The notes below the pieces were generated by a model. It saw only the letters and a program-made list of their open reading frames with translations, did no database searches and was not told the origin of the DNA. The translations under genes were made by a program, and so were the position numbers. Source: a candidate division WWE3 bacterium RIFCSPHIGHO2_01_FULL_40_23 (GTDB lineage: Bacteria; Patescibacteriota; WWE3; UBA101185; 2-01-FULL-41-18). From it: a DNA stretch of 64,000 nt. The stretch spans positions 120,623 through 184,622 of the forward strand of contig MEUZ01000001.1 of NCBI GenBank assembly GCA_001772615.1, given 5' to 3'. Numbering within the stretch: position 1 is the first letter of the stretch; each line of letters opens with the position of its first letter. Positions 2,152-49,049 of this stretch are shown piece by piece.

Positions 2152-2698
2152 TATGAAATTAAAATGGGTGGAAAAAAACAATGGCCGCAGGGAAAAGTTT
2201 GATAAATCAAAACTTGCAAGATCTATATATTATTCAATGCGTCATATAGGAAAGGGTACAAAAGAGCAGGCGAGTGAAATAGCTTTGGAGGTTTGGAAAA
2301 ATCTTAGTGAGAATGAGATTGTTTTCTCAAATAAGATTAAAGAAACGGTACTGCATACCTTAAACGACAGGGGCCTAACGGAGGAAGCTTCCACGTATGA
2401 ACTTACTTCACTTCATATAACGGGTGCCGATATAACAGAGGTAAGGAAAAGGGACGGGAGCTTACAAAAGTTTCACCCCTATAAAATCTTCAAATCAGTA
2501 CGCAAAGCCTGTCTTAACGCAGGTATAATCGGTGGAAAACTCTCCGAAGATATTACTAAAGAAGCAGTCCGTAAGCTTTCAATGGAATATCAAGATGAAG
2601 TTTCAACTCATGCGGTCAAAAAGGCGGTTTCAGAAGCCCTAAAGGATGCGGGTTTTGAAGCCGTGGAGAGGAAATATCTGACCCACCGTTACACTTAA
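2141..2698 (+). CDS. standalone protein with two tandem ATP-cone domains
   Basis: Two repeats with the ATP-cone signature (KWVEKNNGRREKFDKSKLARSI and EVRKRDGSLQKFHPYKIFKSV). No zinc ribbon and no catalytic domain. Confidence 0.5.
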   Translation: MRFNMKLKWVEKNNGRREKFDKSKLARSIYYSMRHIGKGTKEQASEIALEVWKNLSENEIVFSNKIKETVLHTLNDRGLTEEASTYELTSLHITGADITEVRKRDGSLQKFHPYKIFKSVRKACLNAGIIGGKLSEDITKEAVRKLSMEYQDEVSTHAVKKAVSEALKDAGFEAVERKYLTHRYT

Positions 2699-2760
2699 AA
2701 GACTTTGGTGGGTTGAAAATTTAAATTAGTGGCTTGCCATGAGCGAGCGAACGAGTCGAA

Positions 2761-2781
2761 TGGTGGGCGCGGATGGGATCG
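2761..2781. repeat. 21-nt direct repeat of the 3' end of the adjacent tRNA (TGGTGGGCGCGGATGGGATCG), att-like
   Basis: Exact copy of 2946..2966, which corresponds to the T-loop/T-stem/acceptor-3'/ACCA of the minus-strand tRNA. Confidence 0.7.
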
Positions 2782-2945
2782 GTCACGCGTCCTAGAAAAT
2801 CTACGTCGCTTACGTTCCTAGATTTTCTACGGCTCGCGACCCCGCCTCCCCTGAAGTATGCGCTTCGCTTAACTTCAGGGTGCGGCATTCGATCTTCAGT
2901 TCCCAATCTAAAGTTCACTTTATTTGCCAATTCACTCCGAGTGTT

Positions 2946-3020
2946 TGGTGGGCGCGGATGGGATCGAACCATCGACATCCACTTTATAAGAGTGGCGCTC
3001 TTCCACTGAGCTACGCGCCC
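2946..3020 (-). tRNA. tRNA with anticodon UAU (probably tRNA-Ile reading AUA), 75 nt, CCA encoded
   Basis: Manual fold of the minus strand: acceptor GGGCGCG/CGCGCCC, D-arm GCTC-AGTGGAA-GAGC, anticodon stem CCACT/AGTGG with loop CTTATAA (U33, A37), variable loop ATGTC, T-arm GATGG-TTCGATC-CCATC, discriminator A, CCA. Confidence 0.65.
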
Positions 3021-3096
3021 CAAACCATCTCGTAAGGATTATAAGATTGCTTCACTTCGTTCGCAATGACAAATAAATATGGCAGACTACGTTATA

Positions 3097-3471
3097 TCAA
3101 TTGGCTTTAATGAGGTAATTATCAGACTCTTTAACTCCTCCTTTTTCATCTTTTATAACAACCTTAAAATTATGATCTTTCCCAGGAAGAAGGCCGTTTA
3201 ACAATATTGAGTGCTCTTTTGAAACAGCGCTTTCGGAAGTTTCAACGCCGTAAAGCTCGGTCGTCCCATAAATAAGCTTGGCAGATACAGGAGCGCTTGT
3301 CTTAAATGAAACTCTTACCGAAGAAGGTGAAAGCTTTTGATAAGTAACATCCGTTATCCTTACACCGACAAATCTTCTCTTAAGGCTTTCTTGATTGCGG
3401 TAAACATACCCTACTAAAAGCCCTAGTGACATCATTAATAAAAACGCAACAATATACTTCTTATACTTCAT
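3097..3471 (-). CDS. small N-terminally anchored protein with an FN3/purple-acid-phosphatase-N-like beta domain
   Basis: N-terminal TM helix, then a beta-rich pattern (SVRVSFKTSAPVSAKLIYGTT...NFKVVIKDEKG). Confidence 0.4.
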   Translation of the reverse strand: MKYKKYIVAFLLMMSLGLLVGYVYRNQESLKRRFVGVRITDVTYQKLSPSSVRVSFKTSAPVSAKLIYGTTELYGVETSESAVSKEHSILLNGLLPGKDHNFKVVIKDEKGGVKESDNYLIKAN

Positions 3472-3473
3472 GA

Positions 3474-3833
3474 TTACTCCCCTTCACCAAAGAAAAAAAC
3501 GAAACGCTTTAACTTTCTTAGCATTTCTTTATTTTTGCCGTAAGCCTTGCCTTTATGCTTGGTTATCTGCCTAATAATCTCTTCCACGGCATCATCAATT
3601 GTACCTTCAAAACTAATACCCGCGCCTGTTGCAACAAAAGACCTTCCCCCTGCCCACACTTCAACCTTGGCCCTAAATCCAAATCTTGGCCCTTTTTCCA
3701 AAACAGCTCTGATATCCACCAACTCCTCTCCAACATCCCTAACAAACTTCTCAATTTTAGAAAGCTTTTCTAAAACCAGCTCACGGCTTGCCTCCGGAAG
3801 GTCAAGATTTGATGTTGCGATCTGGTAAGGCAT
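3474..3833 (-). CDS. hpf: ribosome hibernation promoting factor (RaiA/HPF/YfiA family)
   Basis: Length and motifs of the S30EA/sigma-54 modulation family (LSKIEKF...AGGRSFVATGAGISFEGTIDDAVEEIIRQITKHKGK). Confidence 0.65.
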   Translation of the reverse strand: MPYQIATSNLDLPEASRELVLEKLSKIEKFVRDVGEELVDIRAVLEKGPRFGFRAKVEVWAGGRSFVATGAGISFEGTIDDAVEEIIRQITKHKGKAYGKNKEMLRKLKRFVFFFGEGE

Positions 3834-3885
3834 CCGAGGTAATTATAAAACCCACACCTAAAAGTGGCAACCAACTCCTTCTTTA

Positions 3886-5004
3886 TTAAAGAGCAAACTC
3901 CTCCCTGCTCTCTATGACGTTTTGAAGGTTTTGTCTATCCTGCGGGCGGTTAACAAGAATGCACCCATCAAGCTTCCCCCTGCGAATAAAGTATTGAATA
4001 CACTCCCGATCCGAAATAACTTTAGTCTTTACCTCCGTACTGCCATCAAGACCGGCAAATCCCAGGAAAACTATACTTAACTTATCATGCGTAATTGAAT
4101 ACGCGGAAAGATTATCAAAAACCTCGTTTTTAGAAAGCATATTAAACCCAGCGTACTTTCCTGAAACTGCGGCATTAGTCCAGTTGCCATATCTCACATA
4201 CCTATCAAGTTTCTTACTGAAAAATTTAGCAAGATCTCCCGATGCGTAAACATTATCAAAATCGGTTTTTAAAGTCTGATCAACAACCAGACCCGCGTCA
4301 AAGTTCAAACCGGCACCTTCAAAAAAACTCTTTGAAAGATCAAGTCCTATACCTGTTCCGACTATTGTATCCTCATCAGTTACAAAAGGTGAATCCTCAC
4401 CGTAATAAATCTTAACTCCTCTTTCCTTTAACAGTTTACAGATGAGATCCGAAACTTCTTTTTGTAAAAAGTTCGCCCAGAAGCCCTCCTTTGATACGCA
4501 AAGATGCGTTTCAAGACCATAATGAGAAAATATGTCCACAAATTCAAGTGCAATAAACCCGCTTCCGATTATTACGCCCTTTTTAGCCTTTTTAACATCT
4601 TCCACAACTTTATCGGCATCTTCAATAGTTTGCAAAGAATGTTCATTTTTATACTTATTGAGTTTTTTTGGGACTCCTCCGGTAGTGAGAAGCAGTTTCC
4701 CGTAGTGGAAACCGGTTCCGTCTTCCGTTTTTACAAACTGATTTTTGGGGTCCAGAGATACAACCTTCTTCCCACAAAGATATTCTATATTTTTATCGGA
4801 GTAATGTTTGAAATCCCTTAAGAAAATATCTTCCCGCGCTCTTTCGCCTTTTACATAAAAAGGGATTTTAACTCTTGAATACAGCGGATAATTTTCATCT
4901 TCAATTATTAAAATTCTTGAAGCTGGGTCTTGCACTCTTATGGTTTCCGCAGCCGTGGTTCCCGAAATTCCTCCGCCGACAATAAGAAAATCAACATTTT
5001 CCAT
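3886..5004 (-). CDS. FAD-dependent pyridine nucleotide-disulfide oxidoreductase family (NAD(P)H:ferredoxin/rubredoxin reductase or NADH oxidase-like)
   Basis: N-terminal FAD Rossmann motif (DFLIVGGGISGTTAAE) and a second dinucleotide motif (KGVIIGSGFIALE). Lies immediately downstream of a ferredoxin gene. Confidence 0.7.
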   Translation of the reverse strand: MENVDFLIVGGGISGTTAAETIRVQDPASRILIIEDENYPLYSRVKIPFYVKGERAREDIFLRDFKHYSDKNIEYLCGKKVVSLDPKNQFVKTEDGTGFHYGKLLLTTGGVPKKLNKYKNEHSLQTIEDADKVVEDVKKAKKGVIIGSGFIALEFVDIFSHYGLETHLCVSKEGFWANFLQKEVSDLICKLLKERGVKIYYGEDSPFVTDEDTIVGTGIGLDLSKSFFEGAGLNFDAGLVVDQTLKTDFDNVYASGDLAKFFSKKLDRYVRYGNWTNAAVSGKYAGFNMLSKNEVFDNLSAYSITHDKLSIVFLGFAGLDGSTEVKTKVISDRECIQYFIRRGKLDGCILVNRPQDRQNLQNVIESREEFAL

Positions 5005-5506: not shown

Positions 5507-5863
5507 TTAAACTAGCGCTTTGTGCAGGGCTGAAAGAGAAAGGGTGGCACATTTAACTCTGCTTATGGTTAGATCAGGGTTAACACTCTGGGCTACTTCC
5601 ATTTTGGTTATTTTTTTTGCGTCCTTCACCCGCATACCTTTTACCTTTTCGGTAAGAATTGAAGCCGAAGCAATACTTATCGCACACCCCGCTCCGCTAA
5701 AGCCTATATCTTTAATGACCCCATTCTCAACAAGCACTTCAAGATCAATCATATCCCCACATAACGGATTGCTTTCATGAACGCTTTTTGTCGGAGTAGG
5801 AAGCTTCTTGTAATTTCGCGGGTTTTTAAAATGATCCATTAGTTCTTCTCTATAAATATCCAT
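5507..5863 (-). CDS. sufU: SufU/IscU-type Fe-S cluster scaffold (NifU N-terminal domain)
   Basis: Conserved Cys-containing motifs (LCGDMIDLEV, GAGCAISIASASIL). Immediately downstream of the cysteine desulfurase. Confidence 0.7.
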   Translation of the reverse strand: MDIYREELMDHFKNPRNYKKLPTPTKSVHESNPLCGDMIDLEVLVENGVIKDIGFSGAGCAISIASASILTEKVKGMRVKDAKKITKMEVAQSVNPDLTISRVKCATLSLSALHKALV

Positions 5864-5865
5864 AA

Positions 5866-7080
5866 TTACCTTTTTAAAATCCTTTCCGCCTTTTCTATTC
5901 CGTATAAAAGTGCGTCCACATCTTCCTTTGTATTATAAAGATAAAAACTGGCTCTTGCCGTAGCGGGAATCTTTAATTTGTTGTGCAAAGGCATCGTGCA
6001 GTGATGGCCGCTTCTTATAGCAACCCCTTCCGTATCTAAAACTGACGCGAGATCGTGAGGATGGATACCCTCAAGAGTGAACGCTATTAAACCCGTCCTT
6101 CTTTTAACATCAGTGGGACCATAAGTTTTAAGCCCCGGCACCAGATTTAATTTAGCCAAAGAATAATTTAAAAGTCCTACTTCATGCTCACTAATATTTT
6201 CCATCCCAATCCTATTAAGGTAATCTATACCAGCCCCCAAACCAACAGCACCTGAAACATTAGGAGTGCCCGCTTCAAATCTCCCAGGGATATCGGCGTA
6301 AGTGGCCCGGTCAAAAAACACCTCCTTGATCATTCCGCCCCCGACCTGATAAGGTTCCATATTTTCCAAAATTTCCTTCTTTACATACAAAACCCCAATT
6401 CCCATAGGGGAGAGCATCTTATGACCTGAAAAAGCGTAAAAATCACAATCAAGGCTTAAAACATCAACCTTCATATGAGGCACAGCCTGCGCTCCATCAA
6501 CAAAAACCAAAGCACCTTCCAAGTGAGCTTCTCTTGAAATATCTTTAATTTCCTGGATAGTCCCCAGCACATTTGATGCATGGGAAACTGCAACAATCTT
6601 AGGCTTTAAACCTTGCAAAGACCCCGTAACAAAACCCTCCTCGTCAATGCTTAAGACCTTAAGATTTGCGTTTTTCTCTTTTGCCAGAATCTGCCAAGGG
6701 ATGATATTGCTATGATGCTCAATTTCCGTTACGGCAATCGTATCCCCTTTCTTAATATTTTTTCTTCCCCAAGAATAGGCGACTAGGTTAACGGCTTCAG
6801 TAGTACCCTTTGTGAAAATAATTTCCTCGGGATGCCTTGCATTTATAAATCTTGCAACTTTTTCTCTAGCCTCTTCATACATAGCTGTTGCCTCTTCAGA
6901 TAAAGTGTGGACACCGCGGTGGACATTGGCATTATGGTTTTTATAAAAATTATTTATCGCGTCAATAACCACTTGGGGCTTTTGGCTCGTCGCCGCATTA
7001 TCAAGATATGAAAGTTTTTTACCGTTTATCTCTCGGCTTAATATTGGGAAATCACTTTTTACTTTAGCTACGTCAAACAT
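5866..7080 (-). CDS. sufS: cysteine desulfurase (class V aminotransferase, SufS-like)
   Basis: PLP-lysine motif SGHKM and the catalytic Cys region HHCTMPLH, ~400 aa. Confidence 0.85.
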   Translation of the reverse strand: MFDVAKVKSDFPILSREINGKKLSYLDNAATSQKPQVVIDAINNFYKNHNANVHRGVHTLSEEATAMYEEAREKVARFINARHPEEIIFTKGTTEAVNLVAYSWGRKNIKKGDTIAVTEIEHHSNIIPWQILAKEKNANLKVLSIDEEGFVTGSLQGLKPKIVAVSHASNVLGTIQEIKDISREAHLEGALVFVDGAQAVPHMKVDVLSLDCDFYAFSGHKMLSPMGIGVLYVKKEILENMEPYQVGGGMIKEVFFDRATYADIPGRFEAGTPNVSGAVGLGAGIDYLNRIGMENISEHEVGLLNYSLAKLNLVPGLKTYGPTDVKRRTGLIAFTLEGIHPHDLASVLDTEGVAIRSGHHCTMPLHNKLKIPATARASFYLYNTKEDVDALLYGIEKAERILKR

Positions 7081-7101
7081 AACAGTAAGGGGATATTTTT
7101 C

Positions 7102-7422
7102 TTACCACTCCTCAAGAAAGACGTAAATGTCATCTCCTTCAAGCTTAACTTCATAAGTCTTTATTTTTACGGTTGGGGGAGGCCCCGTCACATCACCCGT
7201 CTTAAGATCAAACTTACCACCATGCCTTGGGCACTCAACACAGCATCCGTCAACAACTTCACCATCTCCCAAATCCCCCCCATCGTGAGTGCATACATCG
7301 GAGATCGCAAGAAACTCCCCGTTTAAGTTTGCAATGGCAACGGGAACTCCGTTTATCCTGAAAGGTTTAATTGAATTAACCGGTATATCCTTTGTGTTTG
7401 CTACTTTTACAAAATCAGCCAT
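7102..7422 (-). CDS. Rieske [2Fe-2S] ferredoxin
   Basis: CTHDGG...CPRHGG (CxH...CxxH) in a 106-aa protein. Confidence 0.7.
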   Translation of the reverse strand: MADFVKVANTKDIPVNSIKPFRINGVPVAIANLNGEFLAISDVCTHDGGDLGDGEVVDGCCVECPRHGGKFDLKTGDVTGPPPTVKIKTYEVKLEGDDIYVFLEEW

Positions 7423-8038
7423 ATTTTGATAACCTTTCTAAAATAATACTTTTTATTTCTTCCCTAATTTTACCATCTGTAATTTTTCCGAAAACCGCTT
7501 CAAAAAAACCTTCAAGAATAATCTTCACCGCTTCTTCTCTTGATAAGCCCCTGCTCATAAGATAAAAAATTTCCTCCTCGCTTATTCTCCCTGTTGTTGC
7601 TCCGTGAGTGGCTTTAACATCATCCGCTTCAATCTCAAGCATAGGTTGTGATTCATTTCTTGCCTTATCCCCCAGAATTAAAACGTCGTGGTCAAGATAA
7701 GAATCCGTTTTCTGCGCCTTCTTTTCAATTTTAATCACACCTTTAAACAAGGAGCTTGACGAATCTTTTAAAACACCTCTTATCTGTGTAAGAGATTTAG
7801 TATTAAAAGCTTTGTGAATTACATTTACCGTCAAATCAATCTTTTCTGATGAAAGGCCCGCGTAAACTCCAAGAATCTCAACTGAAGACCCCTCCTTATC
7901 CAAAATCACATCAAGTGACTTTGATACGCTTCCCCTTGGAACTTCCAGAATAACCTGTTTTAGGACGGGTGAAACATTCACTACCTGATATTTCCCATCA
8001 AGCCTAATTAGCTCAAAAGTCTTACCGGAAACTTTCAT
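7415..8038 (-). CDS. sufD: short SufD-like protein (SufBD-family C-terminal domain)
   Basis: C-terminal motif shared with SufB ([28 protein letters not shown]). Only 207 aa. Confidence 0.6.
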
Positions 8039-9456
8039 CCAACGCTTCCCTCCATCTCAAGCTCAATAAGTTTATTTAGCTCCACCGCATATTCCAGCGG
8101 CAATTCTTTGACGATTGGCTCCATGAAACCTGACACAACAAGATTTATGGCCTCCGCTTTTGACAAACCTCTGCTCATTAAGTAAAACAACTGCTCCTCG
8201 CCTATACGGCTGACGGTTGCTTCATGCTCAATATTTACATCCGATTCGTTAATTCTCATAACGGGATAAGTGTCGGATCTTGAATCGGCGTCTAAAATAA
8301 GCGCATCACATTCAACTCTGGATTTAACACCTTTGCATCCCTCATTTACCTCCACAAGCCCGCGGTAGGACGTCCTTCCGCCGTTTGCGCTTATAGACTT
8401 TGAGGTTATTCTTGAGGTTGTGGAAGGGGCAGCATGCATCACCTTCCCCCCGGCATGCTGATGCTGCCCTTCTCCTGCGTAAGCTATTGATAATATCTCG
8501 CCTCTAGCTCCTTTTCCAAGAAGATAAACGGATGGAAACTTTACCGTAAGTCTTGAGCCGATATTCCCATCAACCCATTCCATTACCGCGTCTTCATAAG
8601 CAACCGCGCGCTTTGTCACTAGGTTATAAACATTTTTGTACCAGTTTTGGATTGTTGTGTACCTGACCCTTGCACCTTTTTTAACGATAATTTCAACCAC
8701 CGCCGCATGAAGCGAACCACTACTATAGGCTGGGGCTGAACATCCTTCTACATAGGCAACATAGCTTCCTTCTTCAGCGATTATTAAGGTTCTTTCAAAC
8801 TGCCCCGCGTTTCTTGCGTTAATTCTAAAATAAGCCTGGAGCGGCCTTTTAACTTGAACTCCTTTTGGAACATAAACAAAAGAGCCCCCGCTCCATACGG
8901 CGCTGTTTAGTGCGGCAAACTTATTGTCTTTTGGGGGAACAACCGTTCCAAAATACTCTTTAAATATTTCGGGATATTTTTTTAAAGCTTCGTCAGTGCC
9001 TAAAAAGATAACACCTTGATCCGAAAGCTCTTTTAACAAAGAGCCGTAAACAACTTCCGAGTCATACTGCGACTTTACACCGCCAAGAAACTCTCTTTCG
9101 GCCTGCGGGACGCCTATCTTATCAAAAGTTCTTTTAATCTCATCGGGAACCTCGTCCCAGCTTTTTTCTGTCTTTTCAGTTGGCTTTAAGTAGTAATAAA
9201 TTTCATCAAATTTAATATCGTCAATGTCTTTTTTGTCTGCAATCCATGAGGGCATTTCTTTATTTTTAAAAGCCTCATATGACTTAAGCCTGAAGTCAGT
9301 CATCCAGGAAGGCTCCCCTTTGATGTATGAGATTTCTTTAACGGTTTCCTGGCTCAAACCTTTTTTTGAGATAAAAGAGTATTTAAACTCGTCATGGAAG
9401 CCAAGCTTATATGTGTTGTCTATTATGCTTTTAGGTCTACTCTGTTTAGATTGCAT
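8035..9456 (-). CDS. sufB: Fe-S cluster assembly protein SufB
   Basis: 473 aa, SufB-like throughout, C-terminus [25 protein letters not shown]. Confidence 0.85.
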
Positions 9457-10244: not shown

Positions 10245-10270
10245 AATTTCCCATCCTGAACTGACACTAT

Positions 10271-10377
10271 GTCATCCCGGGCCTGCCGGTAGGCAGGCTT
10301 GACCCGGGATCCCATCGGATCTTCTGTAGAGATCCCGCATCGAGCCTGCCCCTGCGAAGGCAGGGGTGCGGGATGAC
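10271..10377. repeat. composite palindromic repeat (MITE/REP-like), copy A: two hairpins with terminal GTCAT...ATGAC
   Basis: gtcatcccgggcctgccggtaggcaggcttgacccgggat - central GGATCTTCTGTAGAGATCC - cccgcatcgagcctgcccctgcgaaggcaggggtgcgggatgac. Homologous copies occur elsewhere in the window. Confidence 0.75.
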
Positions 10378-10387
10378 ACATCAAAGG

Positions 10388-12253: not shown

Positions 12254-12352
12254 GTCACTCTGGCACGCGAATTGTCACTCTGGCACGCGAATTGTCATTC
12301 TGGTGAAAGCCAGAATCTAGGATTACAGATCCCGCATCAAGTGCGGGATGAC
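12254..12352. repeat. composite palindromic repeat, copy B (includes a 20-nt tandem duplication, gtcactctggcacgcgaatt x2)
   Basis: gtcattctggtgaaagccagaatcta...gatcccgcatcaagtgcgggatgac. Same architecture as copies C and E. Confidence 0.75.
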
Positions 12353-12354
12353 AT

Positions 12355-13051
12355 GGAGATTCATATTCACATGCTAATCAAGTTAAGGGATATCTCAAAA
12401 ATCTACAAAATGGACGGGGTTGAAATTAAGGCCTTAGACAAAGTCTCGCTTGAGATTAAAGACGGGGAATTTGCGGCAATAATCGGGCCTTCGGGGTCGG
12501 GCAAGTCAACATTAATGCATGTAATTGGTTTTTTGGATGCACTCTCATCCGGAAGTTATTTTTTTGAAGATGTTGACGTCAGCGGTTTTTCCGATTCAGA
12601 GCTTGCAAAAATAAGAAACAGAAAAGTTGGTTTTATTTTCCAGTCTTTTAATCTTCTGCCAAAAACCTCTTCACTTGATAATGTGAAACTCCCCGCTCTT
12701 TACAGTAAAAATAAAAACGACACAGAGGAAAGAGCAAAAAAATTACTTGAAAGAGTCGGGCTTAAAGACAGAATGCAGAATAAGCCTTCGCAGTTATCGG
12801 GAGGTCAGCAGCAAAGAGTCGCGATAGCAAGATCTCTTATGAATGATCCTCAAATAATTCTTGCCGACGAACCAACGGGAAACCTTGATTCAAAATCGGG
12901 AGACGAAGTTTTAAAAATTTTAACGCAGTTAAATAAGGAAGGAAAAACGGTAGTCATTGTAACGCACGATCAAAATGTGGCAAACACCGCAAAAAGAAAT
13001 ATTTTTATAAGTGACGGAAAAATCGTAAAAGATACTCTTACTAAAAATTAA
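12355..13051 (+). CDS. ABC transporter ATP-binding protein (MacB/LolD type)
   Basis: Walker A GPSGSGKST, signature LSGGQQQR, Walker B ILADEPT. The track start at 12272 reads through the repeat element, so the ATG at 12355 (MEIHIHMLIKLRD...) is more plausible. Confidence 0.8.
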
Positions 13052-15227: not shown

Positions 15228-15316
15228 GTAAGATTGCTTCATAATCCTGATCACCCGTTTTCATAGGGGTGAACTCCAACCAGAATCTACAATATCATTC
15301 AAACAACTGCGCAATT

Positions 15317-15397
15317 GTCATTCTGGCGCAAGCCAGAATCTAAAATTATAGATCCTGAATCAAGCCTGCCCCTGCGAAGGCAGGGGTTCAGGATGAC
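15317..15397. repeat. composite palindromic repeat, copy C
   Basis: gtcattctggcgcaagccagaatcta...gatcctgaatcaagcctgcccctgcgaaggcaggggttcaggatgac. Confidence 0.75.
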
Positions 15398-15530
15398 GAG
15401 GATCAAGCCTGCCCTGAATATCTCAAGTTATTGCGAACCCGAGCCAGTGCCGAGGGTGAAGCAATCTAGAAATAAATAAACCCAAGGAGTTTGGAAACAA
15501 CGCCTTGGGTTTTTGGGTCGGAAAAGGGTC

Positions 15531-16125: not shown

Positions 16126-16132
16126 TGGTCTT

Positions 16133-16178
16133 GTCATGCCAGAATCTAGAAGAGATCCCGGGTCAAGCCCGGGATGAC
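16133..16178. repeat. composite palindromic repeat, copy D (first hairpin truncated)
   Basis: gtcatgccagaatctagaagagatcccgggtcaagcccgggatgac. Confidence 0.7.
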
Positions 16179-16251
16179 ATGAAGTCAGTTCAGGATGGCT
16201 GTATGAGACCTCGCATTCGCACACCTCACGGCCTTGTTATAAAATATCTCA

Positions 16252-17190
16252 ATGGCAGCGCAAATTATTAACGGGAAAGAAATAGCAGCTCAAATACTTT
16301 CAGAAGTTAAATCCGAAATCCTAAAGAATAAATTGAATTTAAAACTTGCGATAATTCAAATCGGTGAGGACGAGGCAACAAACATCTACATTAAAAATAA
16401 AATAAAGAGAGCTGACGAAGTTGGAATTAAAACCGAACTTCATAAATACCAGAATGACATAACTGAAGAAGAGGTGGGAAATCTCATCCAAAAGCTAAAC
16501 GTAGATTCCTCCGTCACGGGATTTTTCATTCAAACTCCCATTCCCTCCCATCTGGATTTATTAAAGCTCGTTTCAAAAATAGATTCTAAAAAAGACATTG
16601 ATGGCATGAATCCTTATAACCTAGGTGCATTACTGCAAGGCAGAAGCAGTGTTTTAGTATCTGCTACAGCAGAGGCTGTACTTAAAACACTAGAATATGC
16701 CTACGTGTGCCATACCGGACTTGATCCATGTCATTCTGGACCTGATCCAGAATCTATAAGCCTAGATCCCGGCCTTCGCCGGGATGACAAAGTAAAAGAC
16801 ACTGCACAACCCGATATCAGTAACCCATTAATGGGAAAACACGCCGTTATAATCGGAAGGTCTTTAATTCTTGGAAAACCTCTTTCAGCCCTTTTACTAA
16901 ATAAGGACTGTACTGTAACTTTATGTCACAGCAAAACAAAAAATCTAAAAGAAATTTGTAAACAAGCTGACATTCTCGTAACGGGAACTGGGCTTAGTGA
17001 CTTTATGAAGAAAGACTTTGTTAAAGAAGGGGTTTTTGTTATTGACTGTGGCTCGCCAAAAGCCGAAGTTGATTTTAATAATGTTATAATGAGGGCAGGA
17101 TATATAACACCTGTCCCCGGAGGCATTGGCCCAATAACCATAGCCTCTCTATTAAAAAACTGCCTCAAAGCACACAATCTTCAACAATAG
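16252..17190 (+). CDS. folD: bifunctional methylene-THF dehydrogenase/methenyl-THF cyclohydrolase FolD, carrying an in-frame ~38-aa insertion derived from a palindromic repeat
   Basis: FolD motifs (GKHAVIIGRSLILGKPLSALL, TVTLCHSKT, ADILVTGTG, VIDCG, TPVPGGIGPIT). The segment CHTGLDPCHSGPDPESISLDPGLRRDDKVKDT is encoded by repeat copy E. Confidence 0.8.
   Translation: MAAQIINGKEIAAQILSEVKSEILKNKLNLKLAIIQIGEDEATNIYIKNKIKRADEVGIKTELHKYQNDITEEEVGNLIQKLNVDSSVTGFFIQTPIPSHLDLLKLVSKIDSKKDIDGMNPYNLGALLQGRSSVLVSATAEAVLKTLEYAYVCHTGLDPCHSGPDPESISLDPGLRRDDKVKDTAQPDISNPLMGKHAVIIGRSLILGKPLSALLLNKDCTVTLCHSKTKNLKEICKQADILVTGTGLSDFMKKDFVKEGVFVIDCGSPKAEVDFNNVIMRAGYITPVPGGIGPITIASLLKNCLKAHNLQQ
16729..16787. repeat. 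composite palindromic repeat, copy E, located inside the folD reading frame
   Basis: gtcattctggacctgatccagaatctataagcctagatcccggccttcgccgggatgac. Same two-hairpin architecture as the intergenic copies. Confidence 0.75.
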
Positions 17191-23425: not shown

Positions 23426-23513
23426 TCATTGCGAAGGCAAAGCCCGAAGCAATCTACAACAGATCCCGCACCTACCACCTCACCTGCTGTCATTCCCGCG
23501 AAAGCGGGAATCT
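23426..23513. repeat. degenerate composite palindromic repeat, copy F
   Basis: gtcattgcgaaggcaaagcccgaagcaatctacaacagatcccgcacc...gtcattcccgcgaaagcgggaatc. Track ORFs 23333..23527 and 23350..23544 overlap it and are probably spurious. Confidence 0.55.
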
Positions 23514-23562: not shown

Positions 23563-23637
23563 TCCGGCGTGGCGAAACGGTATCGCGGCTCCCTGTTAAG
23601 GAGATGATTGTAGGTTCGAATCCTATCGCCGGAGCCA
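23563..23637 (+). tRNA. tRNA-Asn (anticodon GUU), 75 nt, CCA encoded
   Basis: Manual fold: acceptor TCCGGCG/CGCCGGA, D-arm GCGA-AACGGTA-TCGC, anticodon stem GCTCC/GGAGA (one G-A mismatch) with loop CTGTTAA, T-arm GTAGG-TTCGAAT-CCTAT, discriminator G, CCA. Confidence 0.75.
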
Positions 23638-23658
23638 GAAATATAGTAAAATCAGCCC

Positions 23659-24045
23659 ATGAGTCAGGAAGAAATAATAAAATCGTGGAGAGAAAGTGCC
23701 AAAAGAAATTTGGATACAGCCAGAGATTTAATTAAATCAAAGCATTATGATTGGGCACTGTTCCTTGGTGAGCTTGCGCTAGAAAAATCACTGAAAGGAG
23801 CCATCACCAAACTACAGAATGACTCCCCACCTTATACCCACAACCTTGTCAAGCTAGCAGAACTTTCAAGCATAGCATTTACACAACAGGATTTAGAAGA
23901 TCTTGCCCAAATTACTAAATATAATGTCCAGGCAAGATATGATGATATCAAGTATCAGTTATATAAAATGGCAACAAAGGAATATACAGAAGAATGGTTT
24001 ACAAAAATAGAAAGGCTATATTCATGGATAGGAAAACATTATTAA
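23659..24045 (+). CDS. HEPN-domain protein (partner of the downstream MNT; putative toxin-antitoxin pair)
   Basis: All-alpha, with the ALFLGELALEKSLKGAI pattern. Overlaps the next gene by 22 nt. Confidence 0.5.
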   Translation: MSQEEIIKSWRESAKRNLDTARDLIKSKHYDWALFLGELALEKSLKGAITKLQNDSPPYTHNLVKLAELSSIAFTQQDLEDLAQITKYNVQARYDDIKYQLYKMATKEYTEEWFTKIERLYSWIGKHY

Positions 24046-24353
24046 GGGACGAGCCCAAAAATTTAATAAAAACATTGAGAAAGGCGTTTCAAGCTAACGG
24101 TGTGCCCGTTGATAAAATTATAATTTTTGGATCTTATGCAAAAAAAACTAACAGACCTGACAGTGACTTAGACTTATGTGTAGTTTCAAAATCCTTTGGA
24201 AAAGACTCTTTAAAGGAAATGATGGAGCTTACTAAGATATCATCTAGAATTGACCCAATGATTGAAATTCACCCATATAACCCACAGGATCTTAATAATA
24301 AATTTGATCCGTTGGCGAAGGAAATTAGAGAGCATGGGATTTTGGGGTATTAA
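24024..24353 (+). CDS. minimal nucleotidyltransferase (MNT, Pol-beta superfamily)
   Basis: IIIFGSYAKKTNRPDSDLDLCVV (GS-x9-DxD). Start chosen at MDRKTLL. Confidence 0.65.
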   Translation: MDRKTLLRDEPKNLIKTLRKAFQANGVPVDKIIIFGSYAKKTNRPDSDLDLCVVSKSFGKDSLKEMMELTKISSRIDPMIEIHPYNPQDLNNKFDPLAKEIREHGILGY

Positions 24354-24368
24354 ACAGATTGCTGGCAT

Positions 24369-24408
24369 AAGGAGATGGTTGTAGGTTCGAATCCTATCGC
24401 CGGAGCCA
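24369..24408. repeat. 40-nt direct repeat of the 3' end of tRNA-Asn (1 mismatch), att-like
   Basis: aaggagatgGttgtaggttcgaatcctatcgccggagcca versus tRNA positions 23598..23637 (gatgAttg). Overlaps the 3' end of the recombinase gene. Confidence 0.75.
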
Positions 24409-25911
24409 ATTAGACCGTATCCGAACCAAGTTTCGTGATACCAACGCCTCAAACTCTGGTACAAACTCGAAACTGGTTATTGTTCGTTCTTTTTCCAGAA
24501 ACGCCTTTGAAATGAAGAAGCGGAGAAACTGCTTTTGTTGAACCTTGGTCATTGCGTCGTAAAGCTCACCTATATTTTTCATACCCTGGATCACTTTCTC
24601 AATTTCTGAATCTTTGAGGTTAGTTGAGGGCTTATCCATTTCTATTATCTGTGCATCTACTTGTTTTAGTTCTTCCTTCAACGGCTGGTAGCGTGCCTTG
24701 ATTCTTTCCGATTCAACAAGTTCATCTCCACCAAACATTTTATCTTCAAGCACCTTCATCTTTTTATCAAGTATGTCTCTCCTTTGTCTAAGCGTTTTAA
24801 GTTGTTCAGGAACGCTTGTACCTTGCTCCTGTTTTACTTCCAACAGCACATTTCGTAAATTATTTAATGCCTTTTCGGTAAATACCGTGCCATGAAAAAA
24901 TGCGGATACTCTTTTATCTGCTTTCTCCAATGAAACATAGGTTTTCTCACAAGTCTTACATCTAAAATAGTTACCTTTTGGGTGGTACTCGGCAGCCATT
25001 AAACTGCCGCACTTGAGACAATGGGCATACCCAGCTAACAGGGTGGTATATTTTCTTGTGCGGTTTGCACCTTTGTTTCTTTTTTCAAACATAAGTAGAG
25101 ATTTCTTATACCAATCAACTGGCACAATTGGTTCGTGAGCCGCCTTTTCATATATTACCCCGTCATAAGACAGCCCGCCACAATAGAGTATGTTTTTAAG
25201 GATGTTGGTCATTGTATTTTTATTGACCTTACCACCAGAAGTATTTCTCAGACCCTGCTCGTATAAAATGTTTGTTATTGAGTAGACGGTGTGGTTTCCA
25301 GAAATCCACATTTCATAAGCCTTGTAAATAAAATGTTTCCTTTCTGGGTCAGGGTAAATCGGTTTGTCCTTTTGAAATGAGTTACAAAATCCGAGTGGAC
25401 TTTTTCCTGGTTTCATCCCTTTTTCTGCAAGTGCCTTCATGATCCTTTTCGTTTTTTTACCAGTACGCCTCGATTCCAATTGGTTGACCGCCGCAACAAT
25501 TACATCAAGGAAGTCGCCCTCGTCTGTGTCGCCATAATAAGAACCATCTAATGGAATTAGTTTTATGTTTCTTTTTTTCAGGAACGCCTTAACTGTCAGA
25601 TGATCCGCAACATTTCTTGCCAGTCTGCTTGAGTCTTGAACCAGTACGAGATCAACCGTGGCAGCATTGTCATCACAGTAATCCAGCAGTTCTTCCATAT
25701 CAGGTCTGTCCAGGTCTCTCGCACTTCGCCCCGAATCTTCAAATACTTTCAAAATGGTTATGTTGTTTTGACTCACAAAGTTTTGAAAAAGTTGGTCTTG
25801 CACTTCCAAGCTATGTCCTGTAAGAGCCTGGTTTGGTGTTGAAACTCGTTTGTAGCACACAGATTTTAACATTGTGCCTGTCTTTGGTTTTATATCTTCT
25901 AATCCGTACAT
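24394..25911 (-). CDS. large serine recombinase (resolvase/invertase N-domain + recombinase domain + zinc ribbon)
   Basis: Catalytic motif YKRVSTPNQ near the N-terminus, a C-terminal CLKCGS...CKTC zinc ribbon and a coiled-coil tail. True start may be the internal MLKSV. Confidence 0.8.
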   Translation of the reverse strand: MYGLEDIKPKTGTMLKSVCYKRVSTPNQALTGHSLEVQDQLFQNFVSQNNITILKVFEDSGRSARDLDRPDMEELLDYCDDNAATVDLVLVQDSSRLARNVADHLTVKAFLKKRNIKLIPLDGSYYGDTDEGDFLDVIVAAVNQLESRRTGKKTKRIMKALAEKGMKPGKSPLGFCNSFQKDKPIYPDPERKHFIYKAYEMWISGNHTVYSITNILYEQGLRNTSGGKVNKNTMTNILKNILYCGGLSYDGVIYEKAAHEPIVPVDWYKKSLLMFEKRNKGANRTRKYTTLLAGYAHCLKCGSLMAAEYHPKGNYFRCKTCEKTYVSLEKADKRVSAFFHGTVFTEKALNNLRNVLLEVKQEQGTSVPEQLKTLRQRRDILDKKMKVLEDKMFGGDELVESERIKARYQPLKEELKQVDAQIIEMDKPSTNLKDSEIEKVIQGMKNIGELYDAMTKVQQKQFLRFFISKAFLEKERTITSFEFVPEFEALVSRNLVRIRSNWLRR

Positions 25912-48879: not shown

Positions 48880-48887
48880 ACCCCCAT

Positions 48888-48955
48888 GTCATCCCGCACT
48901 TGATGCGGGATCTCTACAGAAGATCCAACGGGATCCCCGCTTTCGCGGGGATGAC
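48888..48955. repeat. composite palindromic repeat, copy G (inverted orientation relative to copy A)
   Basis: gtcatcccgcacttgatgcgggatc-tctacagaagatcc-aacgggatccccgctttcgcggggatgac. The central ggatctctacagaagatcc is the reverse complement of the copy A centre. Confidence 0.75.
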
Positions 48956-49049
48956 AAGTCCTGTTCAGCATAGCATCGACCAGACCCATCCATGTTCTTA
49001 GATAGCGTTGATTTGGCTTAACCCCCAACCTGAAATATAATAATACCGC

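What the first reader, a model, noticed from the sequence alone, without database searches (positions are those of the whole stretch)
16729..16787. Palindromic repeat inserted in-frame inside folD, adding ~38 residues while preserving the ORF
FolD normally runs from the substrate-binding region directly into the GKxAVVIGRS NADP loop. Here a 59-nt repeat copy plus flanks is translated as CHTGLDPCHSGPDPESISLDPGLRRDDKVKDTAQPDISNPL between LVSATAEAVLKTLEYA and MGKHAVIIGRS, and the frame is maintained. This resembles the Rickettsia palindromic elements (RPEs) that insert in-frame into housekeeping proteins. The gene looks otherwise intact (all FolD motifs present), so the insertion probably forms a tolerated surface loop.
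Basis: partly seen in the sequence, partly recalled or inferred. Interest (0 to 1): 0.75.

Follow-up and report, generated by a model that had tools for sequence, protein, structure and literature searches.

The report
Hairpin repeat translated inside folD gene
A small selfish hairpin repeat (a "CGTC-tagged REP" dimer, the same superfamily as some Rickettsia palindromic elements) sits in frame inside the essential folate enzyme gene folD of a candidate-division WWE3 bacterium. It adds a floppy 38-residue surface loop without breaking the gene, which is a known phenomenon now seen in a new host group.

Summary
folD (16252-17190, +) is an intact 312-aa ORF with a 114-nt (38-aa) insertion at 16708-16821. 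118 of its 120 closest homologues, including the nearest ones (65-70% identity), lack it.

The core (16729-16789, 61 nt) is an inverted pair of hairpin units: TGTCAT + 6-bp stem + 4-5-nt loop + stem' + ATC. Ten more units with this exact build lie in intergenic DNA of the window.

The architecture matches the published CGTC-tagged REP superfamily (Di Nocera 2013). That superfamily includes Neisseria dRS3 and Rickettsia RPE-4 and RPE-6, and is already known to sit in frame inside genes. The encoded DPGLRRDD is identical to a listed CGTC-1 peptide.

AlphaFold2 places the insert as a low-confidence loop between helix 138-155 and Rossmann strand 197-201. The rest of the fold is FolD (TM about 0.9).

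The insert-bearing DNA is identical in eight loci drawn from several assemblies, so it is not an assembly artefact.

New points:
- The host is a CPR bacterium.
- A second WWE3 lineage carries an independent REP insertion in the same FolD loop.
- Related elements sit in frame in RadA, and probably RecG, of other CPR bacteria.

This is a new member of a known kind, of moderate interest.

The parts
16252..17190 (+). folD (bifunctional methylene-THF dehydrogenase / methenyl-THF cyclohydrolase), 312 aa, intact ORF that hosts the insertion
   Evidence: ORF list. Pfam PF00763 and PF02882. PDB FolD hits down to 1.5e-57. 100% identical to a protein of candidate division WWE3 bacterium RIFCSPHIGHO2_01_FULL_40_23. 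AF2 model at pLDDT 90.7, Foldseek TM about 0.9 to FolD structures.
16708..16821 (+). Whole insertion relative to orthologues: 114 nt = 38 codons (C153-S190). GC is 49% against 37% for the rest of folD.
   Evidence: Alignments A1 and A2. Codon-level comparison with empty sites of P0003, P0004 and P0007. GC content. AF2 low-confidence loop. Boundaries are good to about 1-2 codons.
16708..16728 (+). Truncated, degenerate REP unit: TGCCAT-ACCGGA-CTTGA-TCC(A). It has the tag-like head, AT, left stem and canonical CTTGA loop. The right stem is cut off by the next element.
   Evidence: Read from the sequence. CCGGACTTGATCC recurs as the stem-loop of REP units in other genomes, e.g. 6 copies in L052. 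Moderate confidence.
16729..16754 (+). Left REP unit of the intact dimer: TGTC tag, AT, stem TCTGGA, loop CCTGA, stem TCCAGA, AT, C
   Evidence: Unit finder. 96-97% identical over 26-30 nt to units in Daviesbacteria, Flavobacterium, Ignavibacteriaceae and Patescibacteria contigs.
16755..16764 (+). 10-nt spacer between the two units (TATAAGCCTA). With the flanking ATC/GAT it can form a small third hairpin.
   Evidence: Sequence. RNA fold of 16729-16789.
16765..16789 (-). Right REP unit in inverted orientation. On the minus strand it reads TGTCAT-CCCGGC-GAAG-GCCGGG-ATC. On the plus strand it encodes DPGLRRDD.
   Evidence: Unit finder. DPGLRRDD is listed as a CGTC-1 REP-encoded peptide in Additional file 3 of PMC3733652. 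It also recurs in translated REP arrays P0124-P0126 and P0129.
16729..16789 (.). Intact 61-nt head-to-head (tags outside) REP dimer. It folds into a closed multi-branch structure.
   Evidence: MFE -26 kcal/mol, z = -4.65, 0 of 200 shuffles as stable. Only 1 of its 6 reading frames is stop-free, and that is the one in phase with folD.
16790..16821 (+). 3' part of the insertion (AAGTAAAAGACACTGCACAACCCGATATCAGT, roughly K180-S190), of unassigned origin
   Evidence: No significant similarity to any repeat in the window or the fetched loci. No flanking direct repeat.
16132..16198 (.). Intergenic family member 54 nt upstream of the folD start. The dimer's left unit is internally deleted, and an outer arm GTCAGTTCAGGATGG follows.
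10251..10379 (.). Intergenic family member: HH dimer with long structured loops (nested CCTGCC...GGCAGG hairpins), preceded by the outer arm CCATCCTGAACTGAC
   Evidence: Intergenic position.
12293..12353 (.). Intergenic 61-nt HH dimer, preceded by a partial unit at 12273-12292. It overlaps only the mechanically called TTG start of an ABC ATPase ORF.
   Evidence: The ABC_tran domain starts at residue 55 of that ORF.
15316..15398 (.). Intergenic HH dimer downstream of the MacB/FtsX gene. The right unit carries a CGTC tag and a 27-nt structured loop.
23488..23512 (+). Single REP unit TGTCAT-TCCCGC-GAAA-GCGGGA-ATC, 50 nt upstream of tRNA-Asn
48887..48957 (.). Intergenic 71-nt HH dimer immediately after the stop of an SDR-family gene

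Best explanation
A non-autonomous hairpin repeat of the CGTC-tagged REP superfamily landed in the folD coding sequence of this WWE3 (Patescibacteria/CPR) lineage. The insertion comprises a 61-nt head-to-head dimer, a truncated older unit on its 5' side, and 32 nt of unassigned sequence on its 3' side.

It persists because three conditions hold:
- The total length is a multiple of three (114 nt).
- The element lies in the single reading frame, out of six, that has no stop codon.
- It lies in the short connector between the interdomain helix and the first beta-strand of the NADP-binding Rossmann domain. That end of the strand is opposite the cofactor-binding end.

The mRNA is therefore read through, and the element is translated into a roughly 38-residue, probably disordered surface loop on an otherwise normal FolD. 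The loop is most likely neutral passenger sequence rather than a functional addition.

Shown here: the insertion, its repeat identity, its lineage specificity, the intact frame, the predicted loop location, and recurrence in other genes and lineages.

Inferred: translation, retained enzyme activity, and neutrality.

Unknown: how the element moves. No dedicated transposase is known for CGTC REPs.
For: Insertion and intact gene.

Repeat family:
- The window holds 12 units with the identical build. Stems covary between copies (TCTGGA/TCCAGA, CCCGCA/TGCGGG, CCTGAA/TTCAGG, CCCGGC/GCCGGG) while the tag and the AT...ATC frame stay fixed.
- The copies fold well, with z from -2.8 to -6.5.

Family identity, from the published definition of CGTC REPs:
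- The CGTC tag is often TGTC. Stems are 8-9 bp and start with AT. Loops are 4-5 nt.
- HH dimers (tags outside) predominate.
- Intragenic copies occur, and dimers encode 20-30 aa.
- CGTC-1 corresponds to dRS3 and RPE-6, and CGTC-4 to RPE-4.
- DPGLRRDD and CHS......R(R/G)(N/D)D-type peptides are listed there.

Lineage specificity and independence:
- P0001 is 65-70% identical to insert-free P0002-P0004.
- P0005 carries a different, roughly 75-aa REP-built insert in the same loop. It is 79% identical to insert-free P0007 but only 62% to P0001.

Not an artefact: folD DNA is identical in 8 loci drawn from several assemblies (ENA, JGI, Logan), and 21 contigs on record encode the identical protein.

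Selection filter: only 1 of 6 frames of the core is open, and it is the one used.

Structure: AF2 pLDDT is above 90 outside residues 156-190 and below 50 for 160-184. Foldseek TM normalised to the target is 0.82-0.93 against solved FolDs.

Low constraint on the loop: variant P0123 differs from P0001 at 8 residues, all within 164-195.

Recurrence: an in-frame insert of about 43 aa in RadA of a Levyibacteriota MAG, and about 17-20 aa in RecG of a Daviesbacteria MAG.
Against: - There is no transcript, peptide or enzyme data, so translation and activity of the insert-bearing FolD are inferred only.
- About half of the insertion is not an intact repeat. The 3' 32 nt match nothing, so the history of the insertion (one event or several) is unresolved.
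- Tails are C(T/C)N rather than the published CCA consensus, and three window units have 21-27-nt loops. The fit to the four published CGTC families is therefore to the superfamily, not to one named family.
- P0123 is a single low-provenance sequence. It includes a change in the nearly invariant G195, its DNA could not be retrieved, and it may contain assembly errors.
- Whether the loop contacts the FolD dimer interface was not tested.
- I did not check whether the genome holds a second folD copy.
Confidence: 0.8

Rival explanations
1. The REP-derived loop has been co-opted. It gives this FolD a new property, such as a partner-binding or regulatory surface, or the in-gene mRNA hairpin tunes translation or mRNA stability. 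On this view selection maintains it, rather than it being a tolerated passenger.
For: Both 8-bp stems of the dimer are perfect. The same loop was hit independently in a second lineage. In variant P0123 the inferred changes fall in the loop, spacer, tag and flank, not in the stems (by inference from codons).
Against: The insert is predicted to be disordered. All 8 amino-acid differences in P0123 lie inside the insert, which argues for weak constraint on its peptide. The two lineages' inserts differ in length and sequence (38 against about 75 aa). Published intragenic REPs sit in unrelated proteins, which the authors argue speaks against a function. Perfect stems can equally mean a young insertion.
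Confidence: 0.1
2. The gene is a pseudogene or the insertion is an assembly artefact. Repeat-induced misassembly would have joined a REP copy into folD.
For: Short palindromic repeats are classic causes of misassembly. One JGI contig encodes the gene as two pieces, P0122 (100 aa) and P0121 (194 aa).
Against: The folD DNA is identical, insert included, in 8 loci drawn from several assemblies and assemblers. The break in the split JGI copy lies near residues 98-118, upstream of the insert, and P0121 still carries the insert in frame. The ORF is open and keeps every invariant FolD column. The MacB-folD-glyA synteny is conserved. The odds that a random junction is both in phase and in the only open frame are low.
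Confidence: 0.03
3. The insert is present in the DNA but absent from the mature protein. It would be removed by RNA splicing, protein splicing or translational bypassing.
For: The element is a very stable hairpin structure. Mobile GC-rich palindromes that ribosomes bypass are known in yeast mitochondria (my own knowledge, not tested here).
Against: A bypassed or spliced element would not need to be stop-free and a multiple of three. Yet all four intragenic cases examined (two FolD, RadA, RecG) are open and in phase. However, my screen could only find open cases. At 38 aa with no Hint or intein motifs, it is far too small for an intein. No Rfam family, including introns, matched there.
Confidence: 0.02
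4. Both WWE3 lineages inherited an ancestral insertion in this loop, and all other relatives lost it precisely.
For: Both inserts occupy the same 5-6-residue connector and are built from the same kind of unit.
Against: Each insert-bearing protein has closer insert-free relatives: 79% for P0005-P0007 and 70% for P0001-P0002, against 62% for P0001-P0005. This would require several independent, exact, in-frame deletions. The two inserts share no alignable sequence beyond the generic unit build.
Confidence: 0.03

Closest known systems
CGTC-tagged REPs (Di Nocera, De Gregorio & Rocco 2013, BMC Genomics 14:522; PMC3733652), especially CGTC-1 and CGTC-2
   Same: - The terminal tag is CGTC, often TGTC.
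- The stem is 8 bp and begins with AT.
- The loop is 4-5 nt, followed by a short tail.
- Copies are mostly head-to-head dimers with the tags outside and a 10-100-nt spacer.
- Most copies are intergenic, close to gene 3' ends.
- Some copies lie inside genes, where dimers encode 20-30 aa.
- Stem changes are complementary between copies.
- No target-site duplication is seen, and no dedicated transposase is known.
- The encoded peptides are the same type, and DPGLRRDD is listed verbatim.
   Different: - The host phylum differs. The paper reports Proteobacteria, Chlorobi, Bacteroidetes, Spirochaetes and Thermotogae, while this is Patescibacteria (WWE3).
- The tails here are CTN or CCC rather than CCA.
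- Some copies have 21-27-nt loops holding a second nested hairpin.
- folD is not among the published target genes.
Rickettsia palindromic elements (RPE; Ogata et al. 2000 Science 290:347, as summarised in PMC10969869 and PMC3733652)
   Same: Palindromic repeats inserted in frame into unrelated housekeeping genes of a small-genome bacterium and translated as extra peptide segments compatible with the fold. RPE-4 and RPE-6 are themselves classified as CGTC-4 and CGTC-1 REPs.
   Different: The classic RPE-1 is about 100-150 bp and encodes its own conserved peptide. RPEs are defined within Rickettsia. Here the element is a 61-nt REP dimer in a CPR bacterium. Only 1 of the window's 7 elements (2 of its 12 units) is intragenic, whereas nearly half of RPEs are. 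No direct sequence comparison with RPE consensus sequences was run.
Neisseria dRS3 repeats / NIMEs
   Same: According to PMC3733652, dRS3 repeats are CGTC-1 REPs. The single unit at 23488-23512 (ATTCCCGC-GAAA-GCGGGAAT) has the ATTCCC-N8-GGGAAT form that I recall for dRS3 (my own knowledge).
   Different: Neisserial copies are mostly in large intergenic clusters interleaved with other repeats. Here the copies are dispersed dimers, and one is coding.
GTAG-tagged REPs / REPINs mobilised by RAYT transposases
   Same: Short hairpins with a conserved unpaired tag, organised as inverted doublets that can fold into a larger structure. They are occasionally intragenic.
   Different: The tag is TGTC/CGTC, not GTAG. 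No RAYT association is known for CGTC REPs, and none was looked for successfully here.
Bacterial MITEs (ERIC, Correia/NEMIS, QMITE, Nezha)
   Same: Small, non-coding, structured, with terminal inverted repeats (TGTCAT...ATGACA). Some MITEs make in-frame fusions.
   Different: There is no consistent target-site duplication around the window copies, no recognisable parent IS, and a modular single-unit form also exists.

Membership tests
CGTC-tagged REP superfamily | Unpaired terminal tetranucleotide CGTC (TGTC or CCTC accepted variants) at one end of the hairpin | tested here: met
   11 of 12 window units start with TGTC and 1 with CGTC. Both folD units are TGTC. Definition.
CGTC-tagged REP superfamily | Stem of 8-9 bp whose first two pairs are A-T and T-A | tested here: met
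   All 12 units have AT + 5-6 bp ... + AT. The folD units are ATTCTGGA/TCCAGAAT and ATCCCGGC/GCCGGGAT, 8 bp each.
CGTC-tagged REP superfamily | Loop of 4-5 nt | tested here: met
   folD units have CCTGA (5) and GAAG (4). 8 of 12 window units have 4-5 nt and 1 has 6 nt. 3 have 21-27-nt structured loops, a deviation of the kind the paper allows for some families.
CGTC-tagged REP superfamily | Short 3-nt unpaired tail (consensus CCA) | tested here: inconclusive
   A conserved C follows the stem in 12 of 12 units. The next two bases vary (CTA, CTC, CTG, CTT, CCC) and do not match CCA.
CGTC-tagged REP superfamily | Units mostly paired as HH dimers (tags outside) | tested here: met
   5 intact HH dimers, 1 HH dimer with a deleted left unit and 1 singleton in the window. 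No TT or HT dimers. HH definition.
CGTC-tagged REP superfamily | Dispersed multicopy family, mainly intergenic and close to gene 3' ends, with occasional in-frame intragenic copies | tested here: met
   6 of 7 elements are intergenic and 1 is in folD. A pattern scan found the same build in 73 contigs from many phyla. A whole-genome count for this organism was not possible, because its genome was not among the genome-contig hits.
Rickettsia palindromic elements (RPE) | Sequence membership in one of the RPE-1 to RPE-10 consensus families of Rickettsia | not tested
   No RPE consensus sequences were available to align. The link is only through the published equivalence RPE-6 = CGTC-1 and RPE-4 = CGTC-4, and through similar peptides (CHSRESGNP, DSRFRGND against CHSGPDPES, DPGLRRDD).
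Rickettsia palindromic elements (RPE) | In-frame insertion into a housekeeping ORF at a structurally permissive site | tested here: met
MITE | Terminal inverted repeats plus a target-site duplication, and derivation from an IS | tested here: not met
   TIR-like ends exist, but there is no consistent flanking direct repeat at 6 window copies or at folD (best 7-nt match, 522 of 2000 shuffles as good). No parent IS was seen.
GTAG REP / REPIN-RAYT system | GTAG tag and an associated RAYT (Y1 HUH transposase) gene | tested here: not met
   The tag is TGTC/CGTC. A RAYT was not searched for genome-wide. Only 10 window ORFs were scanned with Pfam.
FolD (methylene-THF dehydrogenase/cyclohydrolase) | Both Pfam domains, conserved catalytic-core residues, FolD fold | tested here: met
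   Invariant columns are retained, including Y46, K50, Q94, P96, D117 and PVPGGVGP. Foldseek top hits are all FolD/MTHFD.
Intein / intron / bypass element | Hint-domain splicing motifs, a ribozyme fold, or take-off and landing codons with an in-gap stop | tested here: not met
   The insert is 38 aa with no stop in frame. No Rfam family matched in the region. No extra Pfam domain was found.

The most novel reading that the evidence does not exclude
CGTC-type REPs may be a currently active, cross-phylum mobile family that has invaded CPR/Patescibacteria and repeatedly remodels their housekeeping proteins (FolD twice, RadA, RecG). The two independent hits in the same 5-6-residue FolD connector would then reflect a real insertion-site preference, for example a DNA structure or replication context at that spot, rather than only survivorship in a permissive loop. 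If so, REP insertions would be a general and datable source of the lineage-specific protein insertions often seen in CPR proteomes, and a route to finding the unknown mobilising enzyme.
Probability: 0.2. Interest if true: 0.55.

Novelty: new member of a known kind. Interest (0 to 1): 0.35.

Why it matters
In-frame REP/RPE insertions have been known since 2000-2013, so the mechanism class is not new. The added value has four parts.

1. It extends CGTC-tagged REPs, and their in-frame "protein decoration", to the Candidate Phyla Radiation. I found no paper in the held library that links REPs to CPR. The pattern scan also suggests occurrences in Nitrospirota, Chloroflexota, Ignavibacteria and others beyond the five phyla originally reported.

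2. It gives a clean natural experiment. Two independent insertions of different length sit in the same FolD connector. This marks the helix-to-beta1 loop as highly permissive, which is useful for engineering insertions or tags into FolD/MTHFD.

3. It bears on annotation. NCBI names this FolD "hypothetical protein". REP-derived peptides such as DPGLRRDD, CHSG...PES and ...RGND inflate "hypothetical" ORFs and lineage-specific indels in metagenome-derived proteomes.

4. Because the mobilisation mechanism of CGTC REPs is unknown, small CPR genomes that carry these repeats could narrow the list of candidate enzymes.

Tried and rejected
- A word-indexed protein search with the 43-aa insert peptide returned nothing: "no candidate shares three 5-residue words". 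That search was wasted.
- An exhaustive phmmer search of the 38-aa insert against 1.84 billion representatives gave only 7 hits. The six I retrieved are translated REP arrays, not decorated housekeeping proteins. They support the repeat identity but add no new in-frame cases.
- The genome contigs pattern scan did not return this organism's own genome. I therefore could not count copies genome-wide or look for other intragenic copies in this MAG.
- DNA for variant P0123 is not on record, so synonymous changes and stem conservation could not be checked directly.
- A search for a target-site duplication at folD was negative. The 12-of-13-nt direct repeat flanking the P0005 insert is only weakly significant (19 of 2000 shuffles).
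- The 3' 32 nt of the insert could not be assigned to any repeat.
- L043 (Lachnospiraceae Lon protease) matched the DNA pattern, but I read it as ordinary Lon coding sequence, a chance hit, because no second inverted unit follows the match.
- Rfam gathering-threshold scan: only two tRNAs, and nothing at the repeats.
- Intein, intron, bypass, pseudogene and misassembly readings were considered and rejected for the reasons given under the rival explanations.
Full report
**1. What is in the sequence**

The window comes from a candidate division WWE3 bacterium (Patescibacteria/CPR). The folD product is 100% identical to a protein of [quoted passage not shown], which NCBI names "hypothetical protein".

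ORF 16252..17190 (+) is open for 312 codons. It carries both FolD Pfam domains: PF00763 at 6.8e-31 and PF02882 at 5.6e-45.

Solved FolD structures align in two blocks, query 1-148 and 192-312. About five residues lie between the blocks in the crystal proteins, against about 44 here. In an alignment of the 120 best homologues, the stretch equivalent to E148-G195 is:
- 9-10 residues in 118 proteins,
- 48 residues in this protein,
- 84 residues in one other protein, P0005.

The insertion is therefore 38 codons (114 nt, 16708-16821, C153-S190). It has 49% G+C against 37% for the rest of the gene. The intact repeat is 61 nt (16729-16789), not 59.

**2. The repeat**

A 23-nt pattern from the element occurs 3 times in the window, against 0.01 expected. 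Repeat finding and direct reading show a modular unit: (T/C)GTC-AT, a 5-6-bp stem, a loop, the complementary stem, then AT-C.

A script that requires a perfect stem found 12 such units, all with the ATC tail. The seven other GTCAT hairpins it found are chance-like and lack the tail.

The stems differ between copies but always by complementary changes: TCTGGA/TCCAGA, CCCGCA/TGCGGG, CCTGAA/TTCAGG, CCCGGC/GCCGGG, TCCCGC/GCGGGA, CCCCGC/GCGGGG. Loops are GAAA, GAAG, GCAA, CTTGA or CCTGA. In three units the loop is 21-27 nt and holds a second nested hairpin.

The units are arranged as follows:
- five intact inverted pairs with the tags outside (10270-10379, 12293-12353, 15316-15398, 16729-16789, 48887-48957),
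- one pair with a deleted left unit (16132-16180, 72 nt upstream of the folD start),
- one singleton (23488-23512).

As single strands the elements fold much better than shuffles. The folD copy has an MFE of -26 kcal/mol, z = -4.65, with 0 of 200 shuffles as stable. The others range from z = -2.8 to -6.5.

All copies except the folD one are intergenic, mostly right after gene ends. The copy at 12293 overlaps only a mechanically called TTG start, 50 codons before the ABC domain begins.

**3. Anatomy of the folD insertion**

| Coordinates | Content |
|---|---|
| 16708-16728 | TGCCAT-ACCGGA-CTTGA-TCC-A |
| 16729-16754 | intact left unit (TGTCAT-TCTGGA-CCTGA-TCCAGA-ATC) |
| 16755-16764 | 10-nt spacer |
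| 16765-16789 | inverted right unit (GAT-CCCGGC-CTTC-GCCGGG-ATGACA) |
| 16790-16821 | 32 nt with no match to any repeat |

The first segment looks like a unit with a degenerate tag, truncated in its right stem. Its core CCGGACTTGATCC recurs as a unit stem-loop in other genomes, for example six times in L052. The last 32 nt match no repeat in the window or the fetched loci. There is no flanking direct repeat.

The flanks are probably the remains of an older unit, but only the 5' one can be argued for.

Of the six reading frames of the 61-nt core, only one has no stop codon, and it is the one in phase with folD.

**4. Is the gene real and intact?**

The folD DNA, insert included, is base-for-base identical in eight loci. 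They come from ENA assemblies, two JGI metagenomes and a Logan assembly. In all, 21 contigs on record encode the identical protein.

One short JGI contig splits the gene near residue 100, upstream of the insert. Its downstream piece still carries the insert in frame.

Every column that is invariant across the 120 aligned FolDs is kept in this protein. The MacB/FtsX - folD - ... - glyA neighbourhood is shared with the insert-free orthologues.

AlphaFold2, run with the 120-sequence alignment, gives mean pLDDT 90.7 and pTM 0.87. Residues 160-184 score below 50 and the 10-residue blocks around them 38-68. The flanking helix 138-155 and strand 197-201 are confident.

Foldseek against the PDB returns only FolD/MTHFD structures, with TM normalised to the target of 0.82-0.93.

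The insert therefore leaves the helix that links the two domains and re-enters 2-5 residues before the first Rossmann strand (K196-HAVIIG). By the general rule for Rossmann folds, which is established knowledge and was not computed here, the cofactor binds at the C-terminal ends of the strands. The insertion is therefore on the far side. Contact with the dimer interface was not tested.

**5. Lineage specificity and a second, independent hit**

The closest FolDs all lack the insert. With the insert masked, P0002, P0003 and P0004 are 70, 68 and 65% identical to P0001, and each is 274 aa. Their DNA shows short uninterrupted connectors, for example LKHTNVSLPGKH.

P0005 (343 aa, locus L009) has a different insertion of about 75 aa in the same connector. 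Its DNA contains stacked partial units (GGTCATCCCCGC..., TGTCATCCCCC...). These are followed by a tags-outside pair, TGTCAT-CCCC-[32-nt structured loop]-GGGG-ATC ... GAT-TCCC-GTATTCAT-GGGA-ATGACA.

P0005 is 79% identical to insert-free P0007 and only 62% to P0001. Two independent gains are much more parsimonious than one gain plus several exact losses.

The P0005 insert is flanked by a 12-of-13-nt direct repeat (CAAGAATTCACC / CAAGAACTTCACC). This is only weakly significant (19 of 2000 shuffles).

**6. The family elsewhere**

One scan of GTDB species-representative genomes with TGTCATTCTGG-N3-9-CCAGAATC-N6-20-GATCC found 73 contigs. By my count of the record titles, about 24 are Nitrospirota/Nitrospinota/Thermodesulfovibrionia, about 22 Patescibacteria (Daviesbacteria, Gracilibacteria, Saccharibacteria, Levyibacteriota, Gottesmanbacteria, Peribacteria) and 10 Gammaproteobacteria. 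The rest include Flavobacteriia, Ignavibacteria, Chloroflexota, Zixibacteria, Micavibrio and one Methanosarcinales MAG.

Most continue into the inverted second unit ending GGA(A/T)GAC(A/G). These are MAGs, so single odd assignments may reflect binning errors.

I screened those loci for elements embedded at least 60 codons deep in open frames. This gave two more decorated housekeeping genes:
- RadA/Sms in a Levyibacteriota MAG (L056). About 43 extra residues...RHSGERNDSRIERLQDSGHARMTD..., lie between RadA blocks that are adjacent in 5LKM.
- RecG in a Daviesbacteria MAG (L054). GHPALDAGSINIDSGFRQND falls in a gapped region relative to 1GM5, a net gain of about 17-20 residues.

A third hit, in Lon of a Lachnospiraceae MAG, I read as ordinary Lon coding sequence, a chance match.

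**7. Comparison with what is known**

Di Nocera et al. 2013 (PMC3733652) define CGTC-tagged REPs as follows:
[quoted passage not shown] - a 3-nt tail,
- predominance of HH dimers, defined as tags outside,
- spacers of 20-100 bp, or as little as 1-5 bp,
- no associated transposase,
- intragenic copies in which "dimers ... encode 20 to 30 amino acids", often in DNA replication and repair genes.

They equate CGTC-1 with Neisseria dRS3 and R. conorii RPE-6, and CGTC-4 with RPE-4.

Their Additional file 3 lists REP-encoded peptides. These include DPGLRRDD, which is identical to folD residues 172-179, and also RHPGLDPGS..., CHSRESGNP, DSRFRGND and VIPAKAGI.

An exhaustive phmmer search with the insert found seven proteins. 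The six I retrieved are translated REP arrays full of DPGLRRDD, LGPGLRRDDK and CHSGLDPES-type motifs.

Every defining feature I could test is met except the tail consensus, which is C(T/C)N here rather than CCA. folD, radA and recG are not in their target list, and CPR is not among their phyla.

The same paper notes REPs at about the same site in recB of two Xanthomonas species. Same-site recurrence therefore also has precedent.

A 2024 MITE review describes RPEs as the extreme case of in-frame fusions and speculates that similar events occur elsewhere.

I found no paper in the held library that connects REPs with Patescibacteria/CPR. That is absence from that library, not proof of novelty.

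**8. Mechanism and confidence**

*Shown:* a REP dimer of the CGTC superfamily lies in frame inside an otherwise intact, syntenic folD, in a predicted surface connector, and this has happened at least twice in WWE3.

*Inferred:* the element arrived by the still unknown REP propagation process. No target-site duplication is present, so it is not a classic MITE.

*Inferred:* the copy survives because its length, phase and location are compatible with function, and it is translated as a disordered loop.

The only population-level hint is variant P0123. Its eight differences from P0001 all fall within residues 164-195. If eight changes were spread evenly over 312 residues, the chance of that is about (32/312)^8, roughly 1e-8. 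By single-nucleotide inference from the codons, they map as follows:
- two to the loop of the left hairpin,
- one to the spacer,
- one to the tag,
- three to the 3' flank,
- one to G195.

None maps to either stem. The sequence has a single source and its DNA was not retrievable, so I treat this as suggestive only.

I put 0.8 on the passenger-loop explanation and 0.1 on a co-opted function. Artefact or pseudogene, removal from the product, and ancestral insertion each get a few percent.

**9. Verdict**

The element can now be named more precisely than "RPE-like": it is a CGTC-tagged REP head-to-head dimer. It is a new member of a known kind, in a new host phylum, a new target gene and a recurrent site. 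Interest is moderate, at about 0.35.

Noticed in passing
window 23563-24408 and 24394-25911: The 3' 41 nt of tRNA-Asn(GTT) (23597-23637) are repeated at 98% identity at 24368-24408. The interval holds a HEPN-domain ORF (23659-24045). The second copy abuts a large serine recombinase gene (24394-25911, minus strand; Resolvase + Recombinase domains). This looks like an att duplication from an element integrated at tRNA-Asn.
   Followed up: partly
L009 7442-7690 (Logan SRR22388340 contig; FolD P0005): A second WWE3-like lineage has an independent, roughly 75-aa REP-built insertion in exactly the same FolD connector. It has stacked partial units and is flanked by a 12-of-13-nt direct repeat (CAAGAATTCACC / CAAGAACTTCACC; 19 of 2000 shuffles as good). 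More REP-like units lie right after the folD stop, at 8022-8090.
   Followed up: yes
L056 about 6764-6830 (Levyibacteriota MAG DAIDHL010000012.1), ORF about 5846-7330 (-): A REP dimer of the same family lies in frame inside RadA/Sms. It adds about 43 residues between blocks that are adjacent in S. pneumoniae RadA, 5LKM.
   Followed up: yes
L054 3932-3996 (Daviesbacteria MFDM01000031.1), ORF about 2346-4427 (-): A REP dimer nearly identical to window copy 12293-12353 lies in frame inside RecG (peptide GHPALDAGSINIDSGFRQND), a net gain of about 17-20 residues relative to T. maritima RecG.
   Followed up: partly
protein P0123 (SRR3989344), equivalent to window 16738-16836: A 312-aa variant of this FolD differs at 8 residues, all inside or at the edge of the insert (P164L, D165N, I169K, D179E, V181E, T184P, Q186H, G195E). 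There are no differences in the other roughly 280 residues. The DNA was not retrievable.
   Followed up: partly
proteins P0121/P0122 (one 2306-nt JGI contig), equivalent to window about 16545-16605: In one assembly the gene is called as two ORFs, broken near residues 98-118, well upstream of the insert. This is either a frameshift or deletion variant or a sequencing error.
   Followed up: no
window 10327-10377 and 15347-15397: A second palindromic module (CCTGCCCCTGCGAAGGCAGGGG, or CCTGCCGGTAGGCAGG at 10283-10298) sits inside the loops of three REP units, always followed by the canonical (C/T)TGA or TCGA loop end. It looks like one hairpin repeat nested in another.
   Followed up: no
window 10251-10265, 16184-16198, 48960-48975: Some dimers carry an additional outer inverted arm (CCATCCTGAACTGAC / GTCAGTTCAGGATGG; degenerate GTCCTGTTCAGCATAG at 48960). 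A longer composite element may therefore exist.
   Followed up: no
window 2946-3020 (-): A tRNA-Ile with anticodon TAT (UAU), an uncommon way for bacteria to read AUA.
   Followed up: no
L009 143-1984 (-): The SufB gene in the P0005 lineage carries intein/Hint domains (PF14890, PF07591) according to the precomputed Pfam hits.
   Followed up: no
L010-L082 (genome-contig scan): The TGTCATTCTGG...CCAGAATC...GATCC element occurs in MAGs labelled Nitrospirota, Nitrospinota, Gammaproteobacteria, Flavobacteriia, Ignavibacteria, Chloroflexota, Zixibacteria and one Methanosarcinales archaeon. That is much wider than the five phyla reported for CGTC REPs in 2013. A Nitrospirota subfamily is almost sequence-identical across many MAGs, including ones labelled Deferribacteres and Bacteroides, which may be mis-binned.
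   Followed up: partly
window 12272-13051 (+): The mechanically longest ORF of an ABC-transporter ATPase starts at a TTG inside a REP dimer. The ABC domain begins at residue 55 and the orthologue in L083 is 221 aa, so the true start is probably downstream of the repeat.
   Followed up: partly
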